A stretch of 64,000 nt of DNA. Origin: an uncultured Gammaproteobacteria bacterium (GTDB lineage Bacteria > Patescibacteriota > Microgenomatia > Woykebacterales > RBG-16-39-9b). Numbering within the stretch: position 1 is the stretch's first letter; every line of letters begins with the position of its first letter. The translations under genes were made by a program, and so were the position numbers. The DNA is taken from positions 35,307 through 99,306 of the forward strand of contig CAYIWY010000001.1 of assembly GCA_964367355.1 (NCBI GenBank), written 5' to 3'. Below the pieces are notes generated by a model. It made no database searches, was not told the DNA's origin, and saw only the letters and a list, made by a program, of their open reading frames with translations. Shown here one piece after another: positions 5,182-56,517 of the stretch.

Positions 5182-7026
5182 TTAATAACGAATGGAAATT
5201 AATAATTTTTCCGGGATATCAAGGACAAAACGGGACAGGACTCCTTCGGTACGGGTACCAAAGTAGAGTCGGCTTTGGGTATAAGTCATATAAAGTTGCT
5301 TCTCGGCGCGGGTAATACCGACATAACACAACCTGCGCTCCTCTTCGACACCAGAGGTATCGGTGAGAGATTGGCTATGGGGAAATAGACCCTCTTCCAT
5401 ACCAATCATAAAAACAATTGGAAATTCTAGCCCCTTGGCGGAATGTAAGGTCATCAAGGTAATGGCATCTTTTTTATCCTGATTTTGAACAGCTCTATTT
5501 GGCAGGTATTCTTTTTCGACCAAGGAAACGTTCTCCAAAAAATCAACAATTTCTGGGAATTCACTTGCAACTGAGCGAAGTTCTTTAACATTTTCGATTC
5601 GCCCGAGCGATTCTTCAGAGTTGTCATCAAGATAATTTAAATATTTTGTCTCAGCCAAAATTAAGTCAACAATGTCGATAGTTTTTAAACCTTCTGATTT
5701 TTGCCGAACGATTTCAAAAGAACTTTTGAAATCTAAAACCTTCTGATTGGTTTGGTCAAGTAAAGCCTTGGGACCGATGCCGCGTGGTGGTGTGTTGACG
5801 ACCCGTTTAAAACTTAAGCTATCGCTTGGATTGTTAATAAAGCGAAGATAAGCAACGATATCACGGATTTCCTTACGGTCGTAAAATCTAGTCCCCCCAA
5901 CCAAAACGTACGGCAAACCTTCACGCAACAGCGCCTCTTCCATTACCCGACTTTGGGCATTGGTTCGGTAAAGAACAGCAAAACTAGCCAAGGAAAAACC
6001 TTGGGAAGATGAAAGCAGCTTTTGGATTGTCCGGATGATAAACTCAGCTTCCTCGACTTCGTTTTTGGCCTCGTACAAAATTGTCGGAACTCCTTCATCA
6101 TTTTCCGTCCAAAGTTCAAGTATTGGATGAGAGCGGTTTTGATTGATAACATTTTGAGCCGCACCTAAAATATTTTTGGTTGAGCGGTAATTTTGGGAAA
6201 GGTTGATGGTTTCAACATCGGGAAAATCTTTGGAAAAATTAAGAATATTTTTATAGTCAGCTCCGCGCCAACCATAGATTGCTTGGGATGCATCGCCAAC
6301 CACACAAATGTTTTTGTGTTTAGAAGCGATTATTTTGGTTAATATATATTGGGCTTTGTTGGTATCTTGATATTCGTCAACCAAAACATATTTAAAACGG
6401 TTTTGGTATTTCTTCGCAACTTCTGGAAACTTTTCAAAAAGCACTACGACTTGCATCAAAAGATCGTCGAAATCCAAAGCGTGATTTTCCTTCAGTGATT
6501 CTTGGTAACGAAAATAAACTTTGGCAACAATTTCTTGAAAATAACCGCGGGCAAAGCCTTGATATTCGGTTGGTCCGATAAGTTCGTTTTTTGCCGAAGA
6601 AATCGAGTTTTTTATTGAATAAGGAGAAGTACTTTTCGGATCGAGATCAAGTTCTTTCAAAATTTCTTTGATCAAATCCAAACTGTCAGAGTCATCATAA
6701 ATAACAAACCTTGGACTGATTCCAAGATTTACTCCGTCGCTACGCAGAATACGAGCGCAGATTGAGTGGAAAGTTCCCATCCAAAGTGGCGTAGTTGAAA
6801 CTAACTTCTTTAAGCGCTCTTTCATTTCACCAGCAGCTTTGTTGGTAAATGTTACCGCTAGGATTTCTTCAGGGAGAGCTAATTTTTGTTCCAAAATGTA
6901 CGCAATCCGGTGAGTGATAACCCTGGTTTTTCCACTACCTGGACCAGAAAGAACCAAGAGCGGACCTTTTGTTTTCTTAACTGCTCTTTGTTGATCGACA
7001 TTTAATCCTTCTAAAAGTTTTTCCAT
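5182..7026 (-). CDS. uvrD: UvrD/PcrA-family ATP-dependent DNA helicase
   Basis: Walker A GPGSGKT, VLVDEYQD (motif II), and overall UvrD motifs. The likely start is MEKLLEGLN at 7026; the ORF-track start at 7107 adds 27 non-conserved residues. Confidence 0.85.
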   Translation of the reverse strand: MEKLLEGLNVDQQRAVKKTKGPLLVLSGPGSGKTRVITHRIAYILEQKLALPEEILAVTFTNKAAGEMKERLKKLVSTTPLWMGTFHSICARILRSDGVNLGISPRFVIYDDSDSLDLIKEILKELDLDPKSTSPYSIKNSISSAKNELIGPTEYQGFARGYFQEIVAKVYFRYQESLKENHALDFDDLLMQVVVLFEKFPEVAKKYQNRFKYVLVDEYQDTNKAQYILTKIIASKHKNICVVGDASQAIYGWRGADYKNILNFSKDFPDVETINLSQNYRSTKNILGAAQNVINQNRSHPILELWTENDEGVPTILYEAKNEVEEAEFIIRTIQKLLSSSQGFSLASFAVLYRTNAQSRVMEEALLREGLPYVLVGGTRFYDRKEIRDIVAYLRFINNPSDSLSFKRVVNTPPRGIGPKALLDQTNQKVLDFKSSFEIVRQKSEGLKTIDIVDLILAETKYLNYLDDNSEESLGRIENVKELRSVASEFPEIVDFLENVSLVEKEYLPNRAVQNQDKKDAITLMTLHSAKGLEFPIVFMIGMEEGLFPHSQSLTDTSGVEEERRLCYVGITRAEKQLYMTYTQSRLYFGTRTEGVLSRFVLDIPEKLLISIRY

Positions 7027-32917: not shown

Positions 32918-32992
32918 TGGAGCGGAAGACAGGATTCGAACCTGTGACTTGCTGTTTACGAAACAGCTGCTCTACCACTGAGCTACTTCCGC
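32918..32992 (-). tRNA. tRNA-Thr (anticodon CGU), CCA encoded
   Basis: Reverse complement GCGGAAGTAGCTCAGTGGTAGAGCAGCTGTTTCGTAAACAGCAAGTCACAGGTTCGAATCCTGTCTTCCGCTCCA folds as a cloverleaf with anticodon loop TTCGTAA. Confidence 0.85.
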
Positions 32993-32994
32993 GT

Positions 32995-33070
32995 TGGCGA
33001 CTACGGAGGGATTCGAACCCACGATCCTACGCTGTCAACGTAGTGCTTTAAACCACTGAGCTACGTAGCC
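32995..33070 (-). tRNA. tRNA-Val (anticodon GAC), CCA encoded
   Basis: Reverse complement GGCTACGTAGCTCAGTGG..CTACGTTGACAGCGTAG..GGTTCGAATCCC..CGTAGTCGCCA. The anticodon stem CTACG/CGTAG is perfect, with loop TTGACAG. Confidence 0.85.
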
Positions 33071-33100
33071 TTTACTCCGAAAATTCGGAGGAATCTCTTT

Positions 33101-33176
33101 TGGTGGGGCAGACAGGAGTCGAACCTATAACCTCTTGCACGCAGTGCAATTGCTCTCCCAATTGAGCTACCACCCC
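33101..33176 (-). tRNA. tRNA, probably Ala (anticodon UGC); loop parse ambiguous
   Basis: Reverse complement GGGGTGGTAGCTCAATTGGGAGAGCAATTGCACTGCGTGCAAGAGGTTATAGGTTCGACTCCTGTCTGCCCCACCA. Cloverleaf with T-loop TTCGACT. The anticodon loop ACTGCGT gives UGC but carries C33 and a G3-C70 pair, so the identity is uncertain. Confidence 0.65.
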
Positions 33177-47048: not shown

Positions 47049-48875
47049 ATGACTGCAAAAGAACTACGAGAAAAATATTTAAGATTCTTCGAGAGCAAAG
47101 GGCATAAAGTTATCCCTTCAGCTACTCTTGTTCCGGAACATGATCCAACGGTACTTTTTACCACCGCCGGAATGCACCCGTTGATCCCATACTTAATTGG
47201 ACAAGAACATCCTCAAGGTAAACGTTTGACCAATGTTCAAAAATGCCTGCGGACTGACGATATCGATGATGTTGGCGACAACTGGCACAATACTTTTTTT
47301 GAAATGCTGGGCAACTGGTCACTTGGTGATTTAGATTCCAAAGGGAGCGCAGGCACTGTAGGTGGCTACGGAAAAAAAGAAGCAATAATCTGGTCCTACG
47401 AATTTTTAATCAACGAGCTGCAGCTAGATCCAAATAGAATTTCCGTGACTGTTTTTGGCGGTGATCCGGAAATACCTGGTATTTTGGAAGACACTGAATC
47501 AGTCGAAATTTGGAAAGAGTTAGGCATTCCTGAGGAGCGTATATTCCGCCTTGGAAAAACAGACAATTGGTGGGGGCCAGTAGGGGAAACCGGACCTTGT
47601 GGACCGGATACTGAAATGTTCTATGACACAGGCAAAGGGGATCACGGTAAAGTTTGCCGACCCGGGGAGGCTTGTGGGAAATACACGGAAATTTGGAACG
47701 ATGTTTTCATGGAATACAACCGTACCAAAGATGGAAAATATGAGACGTCAAAACAAAAAAATGTTGATACAGGGATGGGATTAGAACGAACAATTGCCCT
47801 TTTGCAAGGTCGAGAAAATATTTACGAAACAGAGCTTTTTTCACCAGTACTGCAGCTGATTAAAGATTTAGCAACTGACTACAAAGAAACATCCGCAAGA
47901 ATAGTTGCTGACCACTTGCGATCAGCCACCTTCTTATTGTCCGATAAAATTATTCCGGCAAACGTTGAACGTGGTTATGTTCTGCGCAGATTAATCCGAC
48001 GAGCTATTCGCCACGCCCGCTTGTTGGGAATTAATGGCAGTTTTGCTGCCAAAATAGCTGAAAAATTTATTGAAATTTATAAAGATGAGTATTCTGAACT
48101 TGTCGATAATGCTGAATTAATTTTCCGGGAACTAAACATTGAAGAAGAGAAATTTCAGAAAGCTTTGGCTTCAGGTCTTCGTGAATTTGAAAAATTCGGT
48201 GAGAAATTAACCGGTAAGGATGTTTTCTATCTTTATGAATCCTTTGGTTTTCCACCAGAGTTAACCTACGAACTCGCCAGTGAAAAAGGCATAAAAGTTA
48301 ACCATGATGAGTTTGAAGTAGAACTTGTTCGGCATCAAGAAACTTCCAAAGCTGGTAGTGAGAAAAAATTTGCTGGGGGACTTGCTGATCATACGGAAAT
48401 TACCGTCCGTGGCCATACTGCTACCCATCTGCTTCACCAGGCCTTGAGAGATGTTTTAGGTGGTTCGGTCCACCAAACTGGGTCTAATATTACTCCCGAG
48501 CGAATTCGCTTTGACTTTTCTTACGGTGAAAAAATGACAGAGGAACAAATAAAAAAAGTTGAAACAATCGTAAATTCAAAAATTCAAGCAGATTTGCAGG
48601 TCAAAAAAGAACTCCTGTCCCAAGACGAAGCCGATAAAAAAGGAGCTATTGGTTTATTTAAAGAAAAATACGGCGACAAGGTGTCAATTTATGAAATCGG
48701 TCCTTCGACCCATTCGACGGACTCAGGGCAAGCAAACTCAGGACGAGGTTACTCTGTTGAATATTGTGGTGGCCCGCATGTGGAACATACCTCTGAGGTT
48801 GGAAGGTTCAAGATAATAAAAGAAGAGTCAGTTTCCGCTGGTCAAAGACGAATCAAAGCAGTTTTAAATCCCTAG
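47049..48875 (+). CDS. alaS: alanine--tRNA ligase (C-terminally truncated form)
   Basis: Class II motifs, and the editing-domain HTATHLLHQAL and CGGPHV zinc motif. The C-Ala domain is absent. The start was moved to MTAKELREKY. Confidence 0.9.
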   Translation: MTAKELREKYLRFFESKGHKVIPSATLVPEHDPTVLFTTAGMHPLIPYLIGQEHPQGKRLTNVQKCLRTDDIDDVGDNWHNTFFEMLGNWSLGDLDSKGSAGTVGGYGKKEAIIWSYEFLINELQLDPNRISVTVFGGDPEIPGILEDTESVEIWKELGIPEERIFRLGKTDNWWGPVGETGPCGPDTEMFYDTGKGDHGKVCRPGEACGKYTEIWNDVFMEYNRTKDGKYETSKQKNVDTGMGLERTIALLQGRENIYETELFSPVLQLIKDLATDYKETSARIVADHLRSATFLLSDKIIPANVERGYVLRRLIRRAIRHARLLGINGSFAAKIAEKFIEIYKDEYSELVDNAELIFRELNIEEEKFQKALASGLREFEKFGEKLTGKDVFYLYESFGFPPELTYELASEKGIKVNHDEFEVELVRHQETSKAGSEKKFAGGLADHTEITVRGHTATHLLHQALRDVLGGSVHQTGSNITPERIRFDFSYGEKMTEEQIKKVETIVNSKIQADLQVKKELLSQDEADKKGAIGLFKEKYGDKVSIYEIGPSTHSTDSGQANSGRGYSVEYCGGPHVEHTSEVGRFKIIKEESVSAGQRRIKAVLNP

Positions 48876-48928
48876 AGGACTTAGGTAAAAACAATTTAAA
48901 TCCAAATTCTTTCCCAATAGACACACAC

Positions 48929-48958
48929 TTGACAGAAACTATAGGACTGTAGTATATT
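48929..48958 (+). promoter_or_regulatory. AT-rich sigma70-like promoter TTGACA, 18 bp, TATATT, facing GC-rich island D
   Basis: Seen directly. The GC jump begins at about 48966. Confidence 0.5.
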
Positions 48959-49005
48959 GTTGCGCGCCAGCCTATAATCCATTTCGATAAAGAAAGGAAC
49001 TGCCC

Positions 49006-49788
49006 ATGGTTACTGCCACAGCCGCAAAGAACGGCGCATCTGCCGAACCTGTGACATCGCGCCGCGACACTCGCGCCAGCAAGGTTTCGGCGGTCAAGAC
49101 AGAGCAATCGTCCAAGTCCAACACGGGTTGGATGCACGTCAGGATTCACTGTGTCGGGCGCACCCCCCTGCTGATGGATCCCATGACTGATGGGACCATC
49201 GAGGAGCTGGAAACTGGGGTTCGCAAGCCGATCAACAAGCAACTGACGCGTTACCAGGTCTGCGAACCCAAAGTCATGCACAATGCTGCTGGCTTGATCG
49301 CGGTCCCCATCGACAACTTCTTCGCCTGCACTGTCGAGGCCGGCCGGAGAATCCCGTTTCAGAAGATGAGCAAGATGAGTACGGCTACCAGCACGACTTT
49401 GCCGGAGTACTTCCGCTTCATCTCGGAGGATCTGGTACTACTCGACAATAAGGGTAAGCCACTGCCGGACTGGGACGGGAAGTCGAAGAACGGCAGCTGG
49501 AGCGTCGATGTGCGCCGTGGTTGTCTCAAGGATGGCACGGCTGTGCCGATCCGGCGGCCGAAGTTCGACCACTGGGAATTCGATGTCGAGTTCGAGTATG
49601 ACATGGGAGTCATCTCGGACCAGAAGCTTCTCGATCTGATCAAGATCGCCGGCACGACCATGGGGCTGTGCAGCTTCCGGCCGAACAAGAAGGGTCGCTT
49701 TGGCACCTTTGCGATGACGCGCTGGGAAGAGATCGCTCGCCGTGAACAGGATACCGAGGTTGAGATAGTCAGGTTGAAGGCCGCGTAA
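49006..49788 (+). CDS. hypothetical protein (island D gene 1), GC-rich; possible glycine-rich loop near the C-terminus
   Basis: SD AAAGGAA. 260 aa. Low-complexity N-terminus. C-terminal GTTMGLCSFRPNKKGRFGTF is loosely reminiscent of a RAMP/Cas6 G-rich loop; this is speculative. Confidence 0.55.
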   Translation: MVTATAAKNGASAEPVTSRRDTRASKVSAVKTEQSSKSNTGWMHVRIHCVGRTPLLMDPMTDGTIEELETGVRKPINKQLTRYQVCEPKVMHNAAGLIAVPIDNFFACTVEAGRRIPFQKMSKMSTATSTTLPEYFRFISEDLVLLDNKGKPLPDWDGKSKNGSWSVDVRRGCLKDGTAVPIRRPKFDHWEFDVEFEYDMGVISDQKLLDLIKIAGTTMGLCSFRPNKKGRFGTFAMTRWEEIARREQDTEVEIVRLKAA

Positions 49789-49847
49789 CAACAAAGGGTG
49801 ACGTACAGTACGTTTCGTTAGGTTGGCACAACTGCACTGTCGTCATT

Positions 49848-49899
49848 TGCACTACAGGGTGGGGAACTAGGAGTCAACTTCTTTTTCCCCACCAAAACT
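49848..49899 (+). terminator. hairpin GGGTGGGGAA..TTCCCCACC plus T-run after gene 1; its 5' arm resembles the array-unit head
   Basis: CAGGGTGGGG is shared with unit R10. Followed by AAAACTCTTTTTTGG. Confidence 0.5.
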
Positions 49900-50042
49900 C
49901 TTTTTTGGTGGTTTGGTATCGGAATAAATTTCGTTACTAGAGCATCAAAACAAATACTTGGAGAAGATCAATCCAGAGTTGGGCCAAGCATTGTGGACAT
50001 ACCTGCCCTTTCGTCTACTGCTGCCCACTCCGCTGCGTCATG

Positions 50043-51304
50043 GGGCTGGATCCGATTATCGCAAGACGATCGGATCTGCCGACACTAACTACCTCGGCGT
50101 TGATGAGTGCGTTTCACTGACGTGAACTGCTTTGCACTTTAATGCGCTCGAGTTAAGTAGAGGGCTGGGGATCCGGAGAGAAATCAAAGGATCTCTGCCA
50201 ACCTTTTGTTTTCAAGTAGCCTGGGGCGGACTTCATAACAGTGGAGTTTCCTGGGGTCACCTGCAGGGCTGGGTTCCGAGAGGAAACAATCGGAACCTGC
50301 CACCTTGTTGACGGACTAAGCTGACGTTCAGTGTCGAACCGTTCGGTTCAGCACGCTCACGTGCGTCAGGTTTTAGTGGGGTGCAGGGCTGGGGGTTTCC
50401 TTGGGAAACTAGGGAAACCTCTGCCAACCAATGTTCGGTGCGCAGTTACCTCTCGTATTGATCGCCTTCCTGCTGTTGGCTACTCTGTCGTTTGGTGACC
50501 TGCTGTAATCTGAAGGGCTGGGTCCGTTTACAGAAATGTATCGGACTTGCCAAATTTGTGGTCTAGGGTGCGGTTTGGTTAACTCCACTAGCGTGCGGAA
50601 AACTGGCCTACACCTAACTGACGTCAGGGGCTGAGGACCCGGAGAGAAATCAAAGGGTCTTTGCCAACAAACTCAATTCGTTCCCCTGCTGTGAAGATGG
50701 CTTAACTTCAGTTAAGTTCTCCTTACTTACGTGGGGTATCGTGGAGTATGGGGCTGGGGATTTGCTCTGGAGAAATCTATTCAAGTCCCTGCCAACAACT
50801 TAAGTTGAACTTAGCTGCAGCTGACTTCTGTTCGCTGGGCTATTGTTACGTGCAGGGCTGGGTCCGTTTACAGAAATGTATCGGACCTGCCAAACCAATT
50901 TTGATGAATTGATTCTGAAAACATAAATTTCAAAACCAGCTCATCAGGGTTTTGAGAGAGTTATCAAGTGCGCTAGACCACTGTTCCCTAAAGCACCCAA
51001 GGGTTCAGCCCACTTTCGTGGTCTTCGCAATGGTACTGGGCTGGGGACCCGGAGAGAAATCAAAGGGTCTCTGCCAAAACGCTTTCAACTTAGGTACTGT
51101 ACCCCGTTCTTCGGTAAACAGTCCTGTCGCATTGTTTAGGGCTGGGGAGTTGGTTAACTTTGGTTTTCTAACTCCCTGCCAACCGAATTAGATTTTCGAG
51201 GGGTAGTGTTGTGTATGGCAGCGTCATGCTCCGTCTGCTTCAGTACACCAGGTTGCCCCATAGTTCAGGACTGCCCCCGATGTTTCGAAAGAATTATCGG
51301 GGGT
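50043..51304 (+). repeat. array I of structured repeat units with the pattern CAGGGCTGGG, variable hairpin, CTGCCAAC (11 units)
   Basis: Units: 50043-50083, 50162-50202, 50266-50304, 50386-50428, 50515-50554, 50628-50668, 50751-50796, 50855-50894, 51038-51080, 51138-51182, plus a degenerate unit at 51261-51304. Stems of 5-7 bp covary (GATCC/GGATC against GACCC/GGGTC; GTCCG/CGGAC; GGATCTG/CAGATCC; GGTTTCC/GGAAACC). Loops usually contain AGAAAT. Inter-unit segments are unique and 60-184 bp long. There is no ORF. Confidence 0.85.
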
Positions 51305-51365
51305 GTCATTTTTCAATATTTACCTAAAAAATTCTGTCCCATTTTGTAACAAGGCACTTTAACAA

Positions 51366-53213
51366 GTGACAAATAGTAAAGGAGAGGGGACAACAGTGCC
51401 TTCATCGCAACATCGTGGTAGGCCTTCTTTCGAGGAGCTTACCTCCGCCTGGCCAAGGCGGCGACTTGGACCCATGTGGTCCGAACAAGAAGAAGCCTTT
51501 GAGGTCATTGCCAAACATGGCAGTTGTACCTTGGAGGTACCGACTGGTATGGGCAAAACCGCTATCGGTTACACGACGCTCAAGGCGTTGGGCAACCGTG
51601 GTGAAGGCCCACTTTTCTACATCGTGCCGACCAAAACTTTGGTTGGACAGGTAGCTGAGATGTTTCCAGACGTCACTCCGGCCTATGGTCGGAATGAGTT
51701 TGATTGTCTCTACTACGACGAGCCGTACAAAGCGGACGAAGTCCCTTGCCTGCTATTGCAGGACTGTGTCCATCGGGTCGATCAAGAGACTGGCCGGACT
51801 GCTGGTCGAGGAGCAGAACGTTGCCCCTACTACCACGCCAAGTACCAAGCCAAACGCGATCCGAGTCGGATCGTAGTCTGCTCGATGTCGTTTTACCTTT
51901 TCACCCAGCTTTTCTCCAAGGAGTTTGAGAATCCAGCTGGTTTGGTGATCGACGAAGTTCAGCAGATGCCAGATGTGGTCCGTAATGCTCTGTCTTTTGA
52001 CATCACGGACTATCAGTTGCAACGGGCGATCAACCTACTGTCAACCACAGCTGCGGATGAAGCTGCTGGTCTCGAGATCTTTCTCGATACTATGTTGCGG
52101 ATCATTCGACTCAAGCCTTCGAAGGTGCCGGTAATGCTCGAAGATGTCGAGTTGCAGGAACTGCTGTTGGTCTTGCGAGATATTGACCGCGATGGTCTGC
52201 GTCGCAAGATCGCCGAGGGTATCCGCTCGGGCGACATTGATGTCGTCAAAGAGCGAGAAGTCCTGACCAAAGTTGAGCGACTGGTCTATGACCTGTACCG
52301 TTACGTGCGAGCGTTTGAATTTTCGCTCAGCAACGAAACACAACGGCCACTCAACTACACCTACGCAGTTTGGGACAAAGAACCAGCTGAGGGCAAAAAG
52401 GTCCACAACAAGCTGACCGTCAAGTCCTACTACGTCGCGCCGGTGATCAAGAAACTGCTGTCAGCCAATCTGACAGTGAGTTTGGGAGCGACTATCGGCG
52501 ACCCGAACGTGTTTGGTTACGAGTCAGGGATCGATCCGAGGCGAACGCCGATGTTCACTTTTGACTCGAGTTTTCCGGTCGGCAACACCCGGATCTACGT
52601 TCCGTCGGACTCCTTTAGCTTGGCGGAAAAAGAGGTCAAAAATCGTGGTAAAGCCACAATGGTCCGTCGGATGGTTCGCTCGGCCAAAACCTTCAACCAA
52701 AAAGGTGAGCGCGTGTTGTGCTTGGTCGTCTCTGACACCGAGCGGCAGCGCTTTATTCGGATGGCCACTGAAGACGATGTCAACTTCATCACTTACGGTG
52801 ATGGCGTGACCGCGCGCGAAGCTGCGGACCGCTTCCGTGCCGGAGAGGGTAAAGTCCTGCTTGGGACAGACGCCCAGTACGGCCAGGGTGTTGACCTGCC
52901 AGACGGTATCTGTCGGGTGATCTTCTACCTGCGACCCGGTTATCCGCGACCAGATGATCCTCAGACCCAGTTTGAGGAAAAGCGTTTTCGCTCACAGAAG
53001 TGGGCAATCTGGCAGTGGCGACTGATCATGAAGGCGATGCAGGTGCGCGGTCGTAACATCCGTGGTCCGGAAGACAGGGGAGTGACGATTTTCTTCGACA
53101 GCCGTTTCCGGCGTTTCCTTTTCGGAGGGATGCCCAAGTGGCTCCAGCCGTCATATCGTGGAGATCTGACACTGCAAGAGTGCATTGAGGACGCGCTCAA
53201 GGTGTTGAAGTAG
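51366..53213 (+). CDS. Rad3/XPD/DinG-family SF2 helicase with an Fe-S domain (island D gene 2)
   Basis: Walker A TGMGKT. Four Cys lie between motifs I and II (CLYY, PCLLL, DCVHR, ERCPYY). Motif II is VIDEVQQM (a DEAH-like DEVQ). The C-terminal LLGTDAQYGQGVDLPDG and QVRGRNIRGPEDRGVTIFFDSR match DinG motifs V/VI. An alternative start GTG 51396 has SD AAGGAGAGGGG. Confidence 0.8.
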   Translation: MTNSKGEGTTVPSSQHRGRPSFEELTSAWPRRRLGPMWSEQEEAFEVIAKHGSCTLEVPTGMGKTAIGYTTLKALGNRGEGPLFYIVPTKTLVGQVAEMFPDVTPAYGRNEFDCLYYDEPYKADEVPCLLLQDCVHRVDQETGRTAGRGAERCPYYHAKYQAKRDPSRIVVCSMSFYLFTQLFSKEFENPAGLVIDEVQQMPDVVRNALSFDITDYQLQRAINLLSTTAADEAAGLEIFLDTMLRIIRLKPSKVPVMLEDVELQELLLVLRDIDRDGLRRKIAEGIRSGDIDVVKEREVLTKVERLVYDLYRYVRAFEFSLSNETQRPLNYTYAVWDKEPAEGKKVHNKLTVKSYYVAPVIKKLLSANLTVSLGATIGDPNVFGYESGIDPRRTPMFTFDSSFPVGNTRIYVPSDSFSLAEKEVKNRGKATMVRRMVRSAKTFNQKGERVLCLVVSDTERQRFIRMATEDDVNFITYGDGVTAREAADRFRAGEGKVLLGTDAQYGQGVDLPDGICRVIFYLRPGYPRPDDPQTQFEEKRFRSQKWAIWQWRLIMKAMQVRGRNIRGPEDRGVTIFFDSRFRRFLFGGMPKWLQPSYRGDLTLQECIEDALKVLK

Positions 53214-53287
53214 AGAGTCAACCTGTGGCCTAGTCAAGTTAACCGAGCTGTTCTGTGGTGACTTGATGTCGGCTATTCAATTGCACA

Positions 53288-53882
53288 GGGTGGGGATCTG
53301 CTCTGGAGAAATCTATCCAGATCCCTGCCATTTTCTTTTTTCAACGAGTGCAGTTAGGCAGACAATGTCATTGTCCTGTTTACCTAACTGGTGTTCGCTG
53401 CAGGGCTGCCTCGATAAAACCGAAAGGATTTATCGGGGCGCCATTCTTTTGATAGTTTAATTTTGGAAATATTTTCAAAACTAGCCTATCAAAGAAAAAC
53501 GATATGGTATTCTTTTGTCGACGCGGCGGTCTTCAGTTCGCTAGCCCATGCTGCCGTTCGGTAGAGTCGGGAACGCTAGAGAGTACTGAACCGCAGTATG
53601 GGGCTGGGAACCTGCTCTGAGTAATCATCAGGTTCCTGCCAACGTTCACTTTCGTGCGGTTCAACAGCGTAGGGACTCGCCAACTGTGGTAAAGTTCTCT
53701 ATTGTAGTGTTAACCGCGCTGGTCTAAAGGGCTGGGGATCTGCTCTGGAGAAATCTATCCAGATCCCTGCCAATTTCACAAACTGACTCAAGCAGGGCCA
53801 TGTCCACAGGAGTTAGGTGGCCTGCGCTTTTGTCTAGTTTAGGGCTGGGTCCGATTTCAGAAATGTTTTCGGACCTGCCAAC
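53288..53882 (+). repeat. array II of the same structured repeat units downstream of the helicase (5 units)
   Basis: Units: 53288-53331 (ends CTGCCAT), a degenerate unit at 53403-53444 (similar to 51261-51304), 53601-53643, 53729-53774, 53842-53882. Units 50751-50796, 53288-53331 and 53729-53774 form one family. Units 50515-50554, 50855-50894 and 53842-53882 form another. Confidence 0.85.
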
Positions 53883-54067
53883 TCAATTTCGGCGGGATTC
53901 AAGTTTTTATTAACTTGGTCCCGCTTTTTCTTTTACCAAATTTTGTTTCGAGATTGAAAATGGTATTATAATAAGAGACGATCTGCCAAGATACCGCGTT
54001 AAATGTAATTTAGATAAATTAAGAACTATTTTATGCGCGCGATATTTCGTCATCTAAAACTGCCAAA

Positions 54068-55030
54068 ATGAAATTTATTCCAAATATTATTCCCAAAAGA
54101 GATAAAAAACATTCCCGCTTTGTCGTTTTGGATATTGGTTTGGGAAGAGTCAATATTGCCATTTTTGATACCACGCCCGAAGGTCCGAAGTTTGTTGGAG
54201 TTGGTAGACGCAGCTTTGGAGCAGCCGATACGATTTTAGACGCTACCTTGGAAGCCACTGACGCTCTGGGAGCAATCGTTGACGAGCTGCCTTCAGCTGC
54301 AATCGTTGGGGTAAGTGGCGGAAAACTCGATACAATTTCCACAATCGCAAAATACACCCGCGAAAAACCAAAACAAGCAATCGATAAAAATGAAGCCTCG
54401 TCAGTCCTAGAAAAAGTTTCTGCAGAAGAAAAAGAAAATCTCAAAATATTTTTTTCAACAATAACTAGTGCAAACATCGACGGAGCAAAACTTACAAACC
54501 CAATCGGGGTTAAGGGGGAAAAAGCAGAGGTAAATTGTTTTATTGCCTTTAAACCAGAAGAAGAGCTGAAGATTTATGACCAAATTATCGATGAGCTAGA
54601 ACTGAAACCAGAAAAAATTATCCCAACTTCATTTGCTGTAACCCAAATGGTAAGTAAAGATTTGACCGGAAATACTCTGCTACTTAGAATTGGCCAAACA
54701 AAAACAGAAGCAGCTCAAGTACACAGAGGAAATTTAATTAAAGTAACAAACATTGACCTTGGGGCGGAACAGCTTGATTATTACCCATTTGCTTTGGAAG
54801 CATTGTTGGAAAAACAAAACCCCGAGGAAAGAACTAGCCTTATTTGGCTTTATGCTGACAGCGACGAGGTTAATTTAGTTGATATTGAAGAAAAACTAGC
54901 AAGTGTGGATTGGAAAAAGAAATTTGATTTTAAAGAAGAAATTAAGATAGAAAGAGCTTCAGGAGAAAATAATTTTGGTCAATCGGATATGGGTTTACTT
55001 GCCCTTTCTTTACAGGAGATTTTTAACTGA
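54068..55030 (+). CDS. actin-like ATPase, FtsA/PilM family
   Basis: The N-terminal phosphate-1-like motif VVLDIGLGRVNIAIFD fits the ASKHA fold. Confidence 0.4.
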   Translation: MKFIPNIIPKRDKKHSRFVVLDIGLGRVNIAIFDTTPEGPKFVGVGRRSFGAADTILDATLEATDALGAIVDELPSAAIVGVSGGKLDTISTIAKYTREKPKQAIDKNEASSVLEKVSAEEKENLKIFFSTITSANIDGAKLTNPIGVKGEKAEVNCFIAFKPEEELKIYDQIIDELELKPEKIIPTSFAVTQMVSKDLTGNTLLLRIGQTKTEAAQVHRGNLIKVTNIDLGAEQLDYYPFALEALLEKQNPEERTSLIWLYADSDEVNLVDIEEKLASVDWKKKFDFKEEIKIERASGENNFGQSDMGLLALSLQEIFN

Positions 55031-56517
55031 TGCGTCAACTCGAGATCGATTCACAAACCAATCTTTCACATATTCTTTCAGAACTTAAAACCACTGATGA
55101 AAATGGGCTGGAATTAAATGTTGTTCCAAATGAAACTACTGTACTGGACAATCCAATTCATAGATTAATTATTGAAAAAGCCGCTAAAGATTTTAACAAA
55201 GAAGTTGTTTTTCCAGCTTCTCCAATTGAAGACGCTCCGGAGGTGGAAAGTGACGATTTGGGTTTTGTCGAAGGTGAGGATATCGTTGCTAAAACCCCGA
55301 TAGAAGAAGTCCACAAAATGATTCAGCCGGCAGCAGTTATTTCTAAAGAAGTACTTGCCAAAAAGAAAAAGTTTACTCTACCGAAATTCCTCAAAAATAA
55401 ATTAGTCTTACTTGGTATCGGGGTATTTGTCTTAATAATTGCGTTCGGTCTTGGAATTTATTTTTTACCCTTCGCCAAAATAGAATTAGTACTAAGCAGT
55501 GAAACAAAAGACTCACAAATAACTTTGACTGGAGATACGACGCAAAAAGAAGTCGATATTAAAAATAAAGTCGTTCCCATGAAAGCAATTGAAGTTTCTA
55601 AAGAAGGCGATGATGAGCAAACAACAACCGGCAAGAAAACAGTTGGCACTGTAGCTAAAGGCAGAGTTACTATCACAAACAGAAGTGTAGAAAAAACTTT
55701 TATTGCCGGAACAATCTTAACCCCAGTTGCTACTAGTAGTGCTACCTTTAAGTTGGATAATGACGTGACTATTCCGGCTTCGCAATGGCCTCTAGGTTCG
55801 GACGGGACAATTGGTGTTAATGTTACCGCAACTGCAGCAGGAACAGCAGGAAATTTGGCTGCAAACACCTCATTCAAAGTTGGAAGTGCCTCGACCATAG
55901 AAATTTCTGCGAAAAACGACCTAGCTTTATCTGGAGGATCTTCCAAACAGGTAACGGTTGCTTCTGCTGATGACCGGGAAGTTTTAAAGAAGCAGATCGT
56001 CGATAAGCTAACAGCCGATGCCAAGAAAGATACGGAGAAAAAAACTAAGGATTCAATTGTGCCCGACGAGGGCTCGATTGTCGAAGTCGTCAAAGAGGAA
56101 TATGAGCCAAAAGATATAAATGCCGAAGCAGAAAAACTCAAAGCAACAATTTCGATAAAAGTTAAAACCTTTGTCTTTGATAGAAATGATTTAACAAAAG
56201 TCTTTGTGGAATCGTTGGAAAAATCGGCGAAAGGCTTTAGTGTTGATAAGGAAGTTTCCAAAATAACCCTGCAGCAAACTGAAAAAACTTCCGAAACAGT
56301 TGCAAAATTTATCGGTAAAATTAAAGCAGTTTTGCATCCTGAAATTAATAAAAAAGAGATAACTCGGCAAACAACCGGCAAGAGTTTGAACGACGTTGAT
56401 TCGTATTTAGACTCGTCCGGTAATATAAGCAGTTACAAAGTAACTACCTTTCCGGGATTTTTTAAGTTTATGCCGTTTAACCAAAGTAAGATTGAAGTAA
56501 GGCTGAAAAACGACTAG
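55030..56517 (+). CDS. hypothetical bitopic membrane protein with a Thr/Val-rich extracellular domain
   Basis: TM around residues 120-145 (LVLLGIGVFVLIIAFGLGIYFLPF). Translationally coupled to the upstream gene (ATGA overlap). Confidence 0.4.
   Translation: MRQLEIDSQTNLSHILSELKTTDENGLELNVVPNETTVLDNPIHRLIIEKAAKDFNKEVVFPASPIEDAPEVESDDLGFVEGEDIVAKTPIEEVHKMIQPAAVISKEVLAKKKKFTLPKFLKNKLVLLGIGVFVLIIAFGLGIYFLPFAKIELVLSSETKDSQITLTGDTTQKEVDIKNKVVPMKAIEVSKEGDDEQTTTGKKTVGTVAKGRVTITNRSVEKTFIAGTILTPVATSSATFKLDNDVTIPASQWPLGSDGTIGVNVTATAAGTAGNLAANTSFKVGSASTIEISAKNDLALSGGSSKQVTVASADDREVLKKQIVDKLTADAKKDTEKKTKDSIVPDEGSIVEVVKEEYEPKDINAEAEKLKATISIKVKTFVFDRNDLTKVFVESLEKSAKGFSVDKEVSKITLQQTEKTSETVAKFIGKIKAVLHPEINKKEITRQTTGKSLNDVDSYLDSSGNISSYKVTTFPGFFKFMPFNQSKIEVRLKND

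What the first reader, a model, noticed from the sequence alone, without database searches (positions are those of the whole stretch)
50751..53774. Compensatory and + strand-specific wobble pairing suggests the units function as RNA
Units 53288-53331 and 53729-53774 have the stem GGATCTG/CAGATCC. The sister unit 50751-50796 has GGATTTG/CAAGTCC. Relative to the other two, this is one true compensatory change (C-G to T-A) plus a T.G pair. The T.G pair is tolerated as U.G only if the + strand is the transcribed RNA; the minus strand would give a C.A mismatch. In another family, GATCC/GGATC in 50162-50202 becomes GACCC/GGGTC in 50628-50668 and 51038-51080, another compensatory pair. Orientation is the same as both protein genes and the upstream promoter at 48929-48958.
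Basis: seen in the sequence. Interest (0 to 1): 0.7.

Follow-up and report, generated by a model that had tools for sequence, protein, structure and literature searches.

The report
Guide-RNA hairpins of a VIPR system

Summary
In a sequence-only alignment of 23 distinct units, 94.8% of stem cells pair against 77.5% in shuffles (0/500). Seven pairs show changes on both sides.

The hairpins are strand-specific. All 27 units fold better as + strand RNA (mean -21.0 against -15.0 kcal/mol). Twenty-one of 27 apical loops are GNRA tetraloops.

The units are not stand-alone. Each hairpin caps a tract of 9-14 pentamers with consensus S-T-N-N-N, in fixed register with the hairpin. Fifteen such tracts lie on the + strand, all within 49807-53851 (0.13 expected).

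The 260-aa gene upstream matches the SUSP1 Vipr protein by profile (E 2e-12) and models as a Cas7-like RAMP. The 615-aa gene is an XPD/DinG Fe-S helicase.

This fits the 2026 preprint description of VIPR systems: a Vipr RAMP, an accessory gene, and guide RNAs made of pentamer repeats plus a structured 3' tail. Related Saccharibacteria loci carry 21-30 such guides next to the same helicase.

No target, processing mechanism or expression data was found. My verdict is a new member of a known kind, with a variant repeat consensus.

The parts
48929..48958 (+). Sigma-70-like promoter (TTGACA-18-TATATT) for vipr and the first array
   Evidence: 11 of 12 consensus positions match. The same core (TTGACAGAAACTATAGGACTGTAGTATATT) is present in L001. 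The whole upstream segment 48876-49005 is 81.5% identical to L001.
49006..49788 (+). vipr: a 260-aa Vipr-family RAMP protein. The first ~40 residues form a low-confidence basic extension. The G-loop reads GLCSFRPNKKGRFGTF.
   Evidence: phrog_4652 at E 1e-9. A profile of 79 homologues matches PDB 36pp_D, the SUSP1 Vipr protein, at E 2.2e-12 over its full length. The AF2 model has pLDDT 89. The top Foldseek hits are type III Csm3/Cas7, for example 6ifn_F at E 1e-6.
49807..49895 (+). v01: pentamer tract plus tail GGGTGGGGAA...TTCCCCACCAA, followed by a T-run (to 49911)
   Evidence: A terminator-like site lies at 49889-49911.
49988..50082 (+). v02: tract plus tail GGGCTGGATCCGAT...ATCGGATCTGCCGA
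   Evidence: The guide is shared with L001 6243-6316.
50102..50201 (+). v03: tract plus tail (GATCC/GGATC stem)
50211..50303 (+). v04: tract plus tail
50311..50427 (+). v05: tract plus tail. The guide is 90% identical to L001 6575-6698.
50440..50553 (+). v06: tract plus tail
50560..50667 (+). v07: tract plus tail (GACCC/GGGTC stem)
50681..50795 (+). v08: tract plus tail (GGATTTG/CAAGTCC stem, cited in the finding)
50800..50893 (+). v09: tract plus tail
50966..51077 (+). v10: tract plus tail (GACCC/GGGTC stem)
51089..51182 (+). v11: tract plus tail
51198..51314 (+). v12: tract plus a tail that doubles as an intrinsic terminator (CCCCCGAT...ATCGGGGG followed by TTTTT)
   Evidence: for the tract, for the sequence and for the fold.
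51396..53213 (+). vap: an XPD/DinG-family Fe-S helicase. The mechanical ORF starts at 51366, but the likely start is GTG 51396.
   Evidence: Pfam Helicase_C_2, DEAD and DEAD_2. PADLOC typeIV_DinG at E 3e-44. XPD structures at E 2e-8. Walker A and four Cys are invariant in four loci. It is 46% identical to the helicase beside vipr in Saccharibacteria locus L004.
53223..53331 (+). v13: tract plus tail (GGGTGGGG variant with a 1-nt deletion; the tract phase shifts by 1 accordingly)
53345..53451 (+). v14: tract plus terminator-like tail GGGCTGCCTCGATAAA...TTTATCGGGGCGCCA followed by a T-run
53521..53642 (+). v15: tract plus tail. The guide is shared with L001.
53644..53773 (+). v16: tract plus tail (GGATCTG/CAGATCC). 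The guide is shared with L001.
53787..53881 (+). v17: tract plus tail
53892..53934 (+). Intrinsic terminator closing the island (GCGGGATTCAAGTT...AACTTGGTCCCGC followed by TTTTTCTTTT)
   Evidence: Sequence read. The v17-plus-terminator segment is 96% identical to L001 over 102 aligned columns.

Best explanation
The island at 48929-53934 is a VIPR (Viral Interference Programmable Repeat) system, as defined in bioRxiv 10.64898/2026.04.26.720920. It sits in the chromosome of a groundwater bacterium.

Components:
- a Vipr RAMP protein;
- a DinG/XPD-type Fe-S helicase as the accessory gene;
- about 17 guide RNAs of roughly 90-125 nt in two arrays, all on the + strand.

Each guide is a tract of 9-14 pentamers with consensus S-T-N-N-n. 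The tract is followed, in fixed register, by a 37-45-nt hairpin. That hairpin is the 'unit' of the finding.

Shown here:
- homology of the protein to Vipr;
- the period-5 tracts;
- the covarying, strand-specific hairpin with a conserved G.U pair, a bulged U and a GNRA apical loop;
- linkage of all three parts in six other loci.

Inferred by analogy with the SUSP1 structures (10.64898/2026.04.26.720927):
- One Vipr protomer binds each pentamer. It buries the conserved S-T and presents the two bases after T for gapped pairing with double-stranded DNA.
- The helicase acts on the bound target.

Inferred from my own counts: the base just 5' of S corresponds to a relaxed G1 position and is free. It changes 2-3 times more often than the other positions between orthologous guides.
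For: Protein:
- A profile of the family matches SUSP1 Vipr at E 2.2e-12 over 192 of 202 residues.
- The AF2 model (pLDDT 89) matches Csm3/Cas7.
- HMMER finds 3180 cluster representatives of the family.

Tract:
- Pentamers cut in register with the hairpin have C/G at position 3 in 91% and T at position 4 in 77%.
- There are 15 tracts on the + strand, all inside 49807-53851. There is 1 on the - strand and 0.13 are expected.
- The other three pentamer positions carry at most 0.15 bit of information.

Hairpin.

Linkage:
- L001 is the orthologous island.
- L002 carries 9 guides after vipr.
- L004-L006 carry 21-30 guides. In L004 the neighbouring 616-aa ORF was shown to be the same helicase.
- L008 has tracts, similar hairpins, the helicase and hammerheads.

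Control: the viral relative L007 has canonical GGY/NN repeats.

G-loop: it reads S-F in all seven loci with S-T tracts, and D/E-W in the two GGY-type proteins. In SUSP1 those two residues contact G1 and G2.

Guide substitutions: by pentamer position they are 10, 23, 8, 8 and 10 of 75 each. The excess at position 2 has binomial p 6e-4.

Literature: the preprint lists helicase accessory genes, variant repeat consensus sequences and chromosomal loci.
Against: - No transcript, processing or binding data exist for this locus.
- No target was found. There was none in 110 kb of local sequence. There was none in four exact 11-dinucleotide scans of viral contigs.
- The repeat consensus (T-N-N-N-S, with C nearly as common as G) is not among those named in the preprint's text (YNNGG, NNNGG, YNNNG, NNNNG).
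- The tail is a hairpin with hypervariable stems. In the SUSP1 clade it is an invariable tail with a pseudoknot.
- No processing element was found.
- Three more distant Vipr-like loci (L009-L011) show no period-5 tract in the DNA fetched.
- The preprint's figures and tables were not available, so I could not assign a VIPR type.
Confidence: 0.85

Rival explanations
1. A degenerate or atypical CRISPR array of a type IV-like system. The hairpins would be CRISPR repeats, the sequences between them spacers, and the two genes Cas7 and CasDinG.
For: The helicase's best defence-model match is typeIV_DinG at E 3e-44. The small protein has a Cas7-like fold. The layout alternates conserved and variable segments.
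Against: The 'repeats' differ in sequence and length (37-45 nt). Only their structure and flanks are kept. The 'spacers' are 59-87 nt or longer and carry a period-5 S-T signal in register with the hairpin, which CRISPR spacers do not. The island has only two genes, with no Cas1, Cas2, Cas5, Cas6 or Cas8-like gene. PADLOC and Pfam find no Cas family for the 260-aa protein.
Confidence: 0.03
2. Repetitive extragenic palindromes or terminator/insulator hairpins with no guide function, which happen to sit near these genes.
For: Three of the hairpins are followed by T-runs and probably do terminate transcription (51267-51314, 53403-53451 and 49857-49911).
Against: The covariance model finds the hairpin only inside the island within the 64-kb window, and only on the + strand. 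Most units have no T-run. The hairpins are in fixed register with the pentamer tracts. Arrays of tract plus hairpin accompany vipr homologues in six other loci from different organisms.
Confidence: 0.04
3. DNA-level elements: single-stranded DNA hairpins or protein-binding iterons used for recombination, replication or partition of a mobile island.
For: The island is richer in G+C than its flanks (about 52% against 38%). It is far more divergent than the flanking gene between two near-identical hosts. L001 carries an inverted copy of one unit at a possible inversion boundary. G.T mismatches are also tolerated in DNA hairpins.
Against: The island has no integrase, transposase, replication or partition gene. 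GNRA tetraloops cap 21 of 27 units, which is an RNA motif. The units are co-oriented with the genes, and the arrays are bounded by a promoter and terminators. The partner protein belongs to an RNA-binding RAMP family.
Confidence: 0.03
4. Vipr-associated RNAs that act differently from guides. They could be decoys or sponges against a competitor's VIPR or CRISPR complex. Alternatively, they could be guides that read three bases per pentamer under a code other than the 1-nt-skip rule.
For: Three positions per pentamer are compositionally unconstrained. No target was found under the NN-x rule. [quoted passage not shown]
Against: Substitutions between orthologous guides single out one of the three variable positions as free. 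The other two are as constrained as S and T, which fits a two-base readout. The absence of targets is weak evidence, because viruses of this host are poorly sampled.
Confidence: 0.05

Closest known systems
VIPR type II systems (Escherichia phage SUSP1, Pseudomonas fulva prophage); bioRxiv 10.64898/2026.04.26.720920 and 10.64898/2026.04.26.720927
   Same: - Homologous Vipr RAMP protein.
- A two-gene locus with long non-coding flanks.
- Guide RNAs of about 100 nt made of 9-16 pentamer repeats followed by a structured 3' tail.
- Arrays both between and after the genes.
   Different: - The repeat consensus is S-T-N-N-n rather than G-G-Y-N-N.
- The G-loop reads S-F where SUSP1 has the D177-W178 pair that contacts G1 and G2.
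- The tail is a long hairpin with a GNRA loop and a hypervariable stem, not an invariable pseudoknot tail.
- The accessory gene is a helicase, not a DNA-binding protein.
- There are 17 guides instead of 4.
- The locus is chromosomal in a likely ultra-small groundwater bacterium, not in a phage.
VIPR types III-V (accessory nucleases or helicases, defence-island context) and the variant repeat classes NNNGG, YNNNG and NNNNG named in the same preprint
   Same: It has an enzyme-type accessory gene, a cellular chromosomal location and a non-canonical pentamer consensus. The relative L008 has the hammerhead-interspersed array architecture that the preprint describes.
   Different: I could not assign a type, because the figures and tables were not held. 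At the position equivalent to G2, C is nearly as frequent as G in the window and L001 (44% against 52%). 'YNNNG' therefore describes the consensus only approximately. The window's arrays contain no ribozyme.
Type IV-A CRISPR-Cas with CasDinG (Csf4)
   Same: A RAMP-based RNA-guided complex is paired with a DinG-family helicase and no nuclease domain is evident. The helicase's best defence-model hit is typeIV_DinG. From my own knowledge, type IV-A acts by target binding and DinG-dependent interference or silencing. That is the closest functional analogy for what the helicase may do here.
   Different: There is no CRISPR array, no Csf1, Csf3 or Csf5, and a single RAMP gene. Guide architecture and periodicity differ (5 nt against 6 nt). 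In the PDB sequence search the helicase matches XPD-type helicases at E 2e-8 or weaker, and no chain named CasDinG or Csf4 appears.
Type III Cas7 (Csm3/Cmr4) backbone subunits
   Same: They give the best structural matches to the AF2 model (TM about 0.55, probability 1.0). They share the RRM core, G-rich loop and thumb logic.
   Different: Sequence identity is about 10%. There is no second RRM and no partner subunits. The preprint places the Vipr family outside Cas5, Cas6 and Cas7.

Membership tests
VIPR system | Vipr protein: a small RAMP homologue with an RRM core, G-rich loop and thumb | tested here: met
   Profile match to SUSP1 Vipr (PDB 36pp_D) at E 2.2e-12 over the full length. The AF2 model with pLDDT 89 resembles Csm3/Cas7. 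The G-loop GLCSFRPNKKGRFGTF is present.
VIPR system | Minimal locus: vipr plus one accessory gene, no other cas genes and no CRISPR array | tested here: met
   There are two long ORFs between alaS and a pilM-like gene. PADLOC finds only a DinG-type helicase. The repeats are not CRISPR-like.
VIPR system | Guide RNA genes made of 9-16 tandem pentanucleotide repeats, with conserved positions alternating with hypervariable ones (YNNGG or a related consensus) | tested here: met
   There are 15-17 tracts of 8-14 pentamers with consensus S-T-N-N-N, all on the + strand inside the island. The consensus is a variant, not YNNGG.
VIPR system | Structurally conserved 3' tail directly after the repeat tract | tested here: met
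   The hairpin is in fixed register with the tract. Covariation is strong.
VIPR system | The RNAs are expressed and co-purify with Vipr | not testable with these tools
   No transcriptome or biochemistry was available. Orientation is inferred from G.U pairs, GNRA loops, the promoter and the terminators.
VIPR system | Variable dinucleotides match DNA targets under the 1-nt-skip rule, typically in competing mobile elements | tested here: inconclusive
   No match beyond chance in local sequence. No exact match for four guides in viral contigs. The relevant viruses may simply not be sampled.
CRISPR-Cas type IV | CRISPR array of near-identical direct repeats separated by unique spacers of uniform length | tested here: not met
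   The hairpin units differ in sequence and length. The intervals are 59-264 nt and have period-5 structure.
CRISPR-Cas type IV | Multi-subunit effector (Csf1/Cas8-like, Csf2/Cas7, Csf3/Cas5, often Csf5/Cas6) | tested here: not met
   There is only one RAMP-like gene. No PADLOC or Pfam Cas family matches it.
CRISPR-Cas type IV | DinG-family helicase (Csf4) in subtype IV-A | tested here: met
   PADLOC typeIV_DinG at E 3e-44, residues 45-605. Four conserved Cys form the Fe-S domain.
Any Rfam RNA family | Match to a curated covariance model | tested here: not met
   The window gives only three tRNAs at gathering score. Nothing relevant appears at E up to 1 in 48800-54100.

The most novel reading that the evidence does not exclude
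This Vipr-plus-DinG-helicase clade, found in Saccharibacteria and related genomes, may use a recognition code that differs from the published GGY/NN, 1-nt-skip code. The conserved dinucleotide is S-T. The G1 position is free, and the G-loop contacts are changed from D-W to S-F.

Its guide sets also turn over quickly at a fixed chromosomal site. Only 5-6 of 17 guides are shared between hosts whose flanking gene is 96% identical. That would imply an unknown way of making or acquiring new guide-plus-hairpin units without Cas1 or Cas2.
Probability: 0.2. Interest if true: 0.8.

Novelty: new member of a known kind. Interest (0 to 1): 0.55.

Why it matters
VIPR systems were described only in 2026. 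They were presented as an RNA-guided DNA-recognition mechanism older than CRISPR, with a gapped code, and only the phage type II has been tested experimentally.

This locus is a clean, compact example of 5 kb with two genes and 17 guides. It represents the helicase-bearing, chromosome-encoded form, in a lineage related to Saccharibacteria.

It offers three testable points:
- A natural variant of the repeat code correlates with two G-loop substitutions at residues that contact G1 and G2 in the solved structure.
- A simple hairpin tail has covariation that defines exactly what must be kept: the G.U pair, the bulged U and the GNRA loop.
- A DinG partner links VIPR mechanistically to type IV-A CRISPR.

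For genome annotation, the result shows that arrays of dissimilar hairpins with period-5 tracts between them are guide-RNA arrays. CRISPR finders and Rfam both miss them.

Tried and rejected
- **End-anchored pairing.** My first count used the wrong register because it ignored the bulged U, and it looked unpaired beyond position 3. Using the MAFFT alignment with the folded reference structure corrected this.
- **Known RNA families.** Rfam at gathering score and at E up to 1 gave nothing for the units. ARAGORN found only three unrelated tRNAs.
- **CRISPR array, integron attC sites and REP elements.** I considered all three and rejected them on anatomy: unit sequences are not conserved, there is no integrase, the intervals contain no ORFs, and the motif occurs only in the island.
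- **Coding potential of the tracts.** Rejected, because a 5-nt period is incompatible with codons. The 50-79-aa ORFs there are mechanical.
- **Target search.** I tested three choices of variable positions with 0-3 skipped bases against the window and all loci. This gave only the trivial self-match at period 5. Four exact 11-dinucleotide NN-x patterns (two window guides and two L006 guides) found nothing in viral contigs.
- **Generic period-5 information detector.** It did not separate signal from background, so I did not use it. L009-L011 therefore remain without detected tracts.
- **Supplementary tables of the preprint.** They were not held, so I could not assign a VIPR type or check whether this locus is in their set.

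Full report
**Observation**

- Units 53288-53331 and 53729-53773 carry the stem GGATCTG/CAGATCC.
- Unit 50751-50795 carries GGATTTG/CAAGTCC. This is one C-G to T-A double change plus a T.G pair.
- GATCC/GGATC at 50162-50201 becomes GACCC/GGGTC at 50628-50667 and 51038-51077.

The shared frame GGGCTG...CTGCCA occurs 10 times in 64 kb. Every copy is on the + strand and all lie within 50162-53880, against 0.11 expected.

**Is the stem real, and on which strand?**

I aligned 23 distinct units from the window and from an orthologous contig (L001) with MAFFT, so the alignment was not fitted to any structure. Counts on the 12-pair basal stem:
- 94.8% of cells are paired, against 77.5% in shuffles (0/500).
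- 51 cells changed on both sides, against 14.1 in shuffles.
- 7 pairs show double changes.
- Pairing is at most 59.8% when partners are slid.

RNAalifold predicts the same stem on its own.

Several features mark the + strand:
- One pair is G.U in 22 of 23 units, and a U is always bulged next to it.
- All 27 units fold more stably as + strand RNA than as the complement (mean -21.0 against -15.0 kcal/mol, Wilcoxon p 6e-6).
- 51 of 393 predicted pairs are G.U.
- 21 of 27 apical loops are GNRA tetraloops, 17 of them GAAA.

A covariance model built from these units hits only the + strand of the island in the window, plus L001.

I cut the 100 nt upstream of each hairpin into pentamers, in register with the hairpin's CTGGG. 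This reveals a strong 5-nt period. Position 3 is C or G in 91% of pentamers and position 4 is T in 77%. The signal fades about 14 pentamers upstream.

A simple detector for S-T at period 5 finds 15 tracts on the + strand, all between 49807 and 53851. It finds one on the - strand and none elsewhere in the window, with 0.13 expected in shuffles.

The detector also exposed units that the motif search had missed:
- v02, with its tail at 50043-50082.
- v12, whose tail at 51267-51314 doubles as a terminator.

Two more units, v01 (tail 49857-49895) and v14 (tail 53403-53451), were already on the candidate list and were confirmed by the same analysis. The total is about 17.

Two units whose hairpin start lacks one base (GGGTGGGG) have their tract shifted by exactly one base. 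Tract and hairpin therefore form one unit with a fixed register. The three remaining pentamer positions carry at most 0.15 bit of information.

**The genes**

The 260-aa ORF (49006-49788):
- It has no Pfam, NCBIfam or PADLOC match.
- It matches phrog_4652 and, weakly, PDB 36pp_D, the 'SUSP1 Vipr protein'.
- HMMER against 1.84 billion cluster representatives found 3180 relatives.
- A profile of 79 of them matches SUSP1 Vipr at E 2.2e-12 over its full length.
- The AlphaFold model (pLDDT 89) is most similar to type III Csm3/Cas7 subunits.

The 615-aa ORF is an XPD/DinG helicase:
- Pfam gives Helicase_C_2, DEAD and DEAD_2.
- PADLOC gives typeIV_DinG at E 3e-44.
- PDB sequence matches are to XPD.
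- Walker A and four cysteines are invariant across four loci.
- Its real start is probably GTG 51396.

**Literature**

Two 2026 preprints describe VIPR systems. They consist of:
- a Vipr RAMP protein;
- one accessory gene, which is a nuclease or helicase in types III-V;
- vrRNAs of about 100 nt.

The vrRNAs are made of 9-16 YNNGG repeats followed by a structured 3' tail. Variant consensus sequences (NNNGG, YNNNG, NNNNG) are also listed. About 25% of loci are in cellular chromosomes.

In the SUSP1 structures, one protomer binds each repeat, buries GGY and presents NN. The target is read with one skipped base per repeat, and a pseudoknot caps the 3' end. Every sequence-level defining feature is met here. 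The hairpin of the finding corresponds to the 3' tail.

**Comparative support**

- **L001.** This is the same island in a near-identical host: the flanking pilM-like gene is 96% identical. Yet vipr is only 53% and the helicase 69% identical at protein level. Its units lie on both strands, each co-oriented with the adjacent gene.
- **L002.** It has nine tracts after a 43%-identical vipr.
- **L004-L006.** These three Saccharibacteria genomes have 21-30 tracts each. In L004 they are co-oriented with a helicase that is 46% identical to the window's.
- **Tails in L002 and L004-L006.** They are uniform 33-nt hairpins of the form GGTCAG-N7-GAAA-N7-CTGACAATT. A gapless alignment of 41 of them gives 93.7% pairing against 67.8% in shuffles. 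Eleven of 12 pairs changed on both sides. One caveat is that I pre-filtered these units for a fold energy of -8 kcal/mol or lower.
- **L008.** This metagenome locus has S-T tracts, a similar hairpin, the helicase and hammerhead ribozymes after each tail. That is an architecture the preprint reports.
- **L007.** This viral relative has canonical GGY/NN repeats, which shows the detector separates the two consensus types.

**Two inferences about the code**

First, five guides are shared between the window and L001. Their substitutions fall on pentamer positions N1, N2, S3, T4 and N5 as 10, 23, 8, 8 and 10 of 75 each. The excess at N2 has binomial p 6e-4. The base just 5' of S is therefore free. 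The two bases after T are as constrained as S and T. This fits the mapping Y3 = T, N4N5 = the next two bases, G1 relaxed, and G2 = S.

Second, the G-loop reads S-F in all seven loci with S-T tracts. It reads D/E-W in SUSP1 and L007. In SUSP1 these two residues contact G1 and G2. The sample is small and not independent, so I treat this as a lead only.

**Transcription layout (inferred)**

- The promoter at 48929-48958 has its core conserved in L001.
- Hairpin plus T-run terminators lie at 49857-49911, 51267-51314, 53403-53451 and 53892-53934.
- A recurring box, ATAAATTTC...ACTAG..CATCA, precedes array segments.

**What is not explained**

- No target was found, either locally or in viral contigs.
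- No processing element or nuclease was found in the window.
- I do not know why tail stems are hypervariable within one array.
- I do not know how guides are gained and lost. Only 5-6 of 17 are shared with L001, and there is no Cas1, Cas2 or integrase.
- Three distant loci (L009-L011) show no tracts.
- I could not assign the preprint's type, because its figures and tables were not available.

**Verdict**

The finding is real and its interpretation is supported. The thing itself is a VIPR locus, a kind of system published in 2026. This is a new member, with a variant repeat consensus, a hairpin tail and a DinG-type helicase, in the chromosome of a groundwater bacterium. The contig comes from the 0.1-um fraction of Hainich well H52.

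Noticed in passing
window 49921-49947, 50920-50946, 53470-53491; L001 about 6205-6230: A recurring AT-rich box, ATAAATTTCnnnAC(T/C)AGnnCATCA, precedes array segments. It may be an internal promoter or operator (families D11 and D13).
   Followed up: no
window 53444-53499: An AT-rich palindrome (TTTGATAG...CTATCAAA) lies between the v14 terminator and the next array segment. It gives only sub-threshold miRNA-model hits.
   Followed up: partly
L001 4970-5100 and 6870-6997: These two stretches are reverse complements of each other and include a guide unit. The block containing the alaS end, the promoter, vipr and array 1 is inverted relative to the window. The contig ends inside the repeat, so I cannot tell a real inversion from an assembly path.
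   Followed up: partly
window 48876-55030 compared with L001: The flanking pilM-like gene is 96% identical between the two sources. In contrast, vipr is 70% identical at nucleotide level (53% at protein level) and the helicase is 68% (69% at protein level). Shared guides are 83-90% identical. A fast-evolving or exchanged island therefore sits at a fixed site between alaS and the pilM-like gene.
   Followed up: partly
window 51366-51396: The mechanical ORF of the helicase starts at GTG 51366. The ribosome-binding site AAAGGAGAGGGG (51379-51390) and the L001 orthologue point to GTG 51396 as the real start. Motif II reads DEVQ here and in L001, DEVH in L004 and DEAH in L008.
   Followed up: partly
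L008 6741-6795 and 7021-7073: Type III hammerhead ribozyme matches (E 2.6e-6 and 1e-3, both below the Rfam gathering score) directly follow the tail hairpins of two guides. The window's arrays contain no such ribozyme.
   Followed up: yes
window 49006-49130: The Vipr protein has a basic N-terminal extension of about 40 residues with low model confidence (pLDDT about 60). L001 shares it, but the 210-aa relative in L002 lacks it.
   Followed up: no
window 32918-33176: A cluster of three tRNA genes (Thr-CGT, Val-GAC, Ala-TGC) lies on the - strand. It is unrelated to the finding.
   Followed up: no
window 55030-56517: A 495-aa ORF downstream of the pilM-like gene has only weak Baseplate_J and Piwi domain hits, at or below the Pfam cut-offs.
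   Followed up: no
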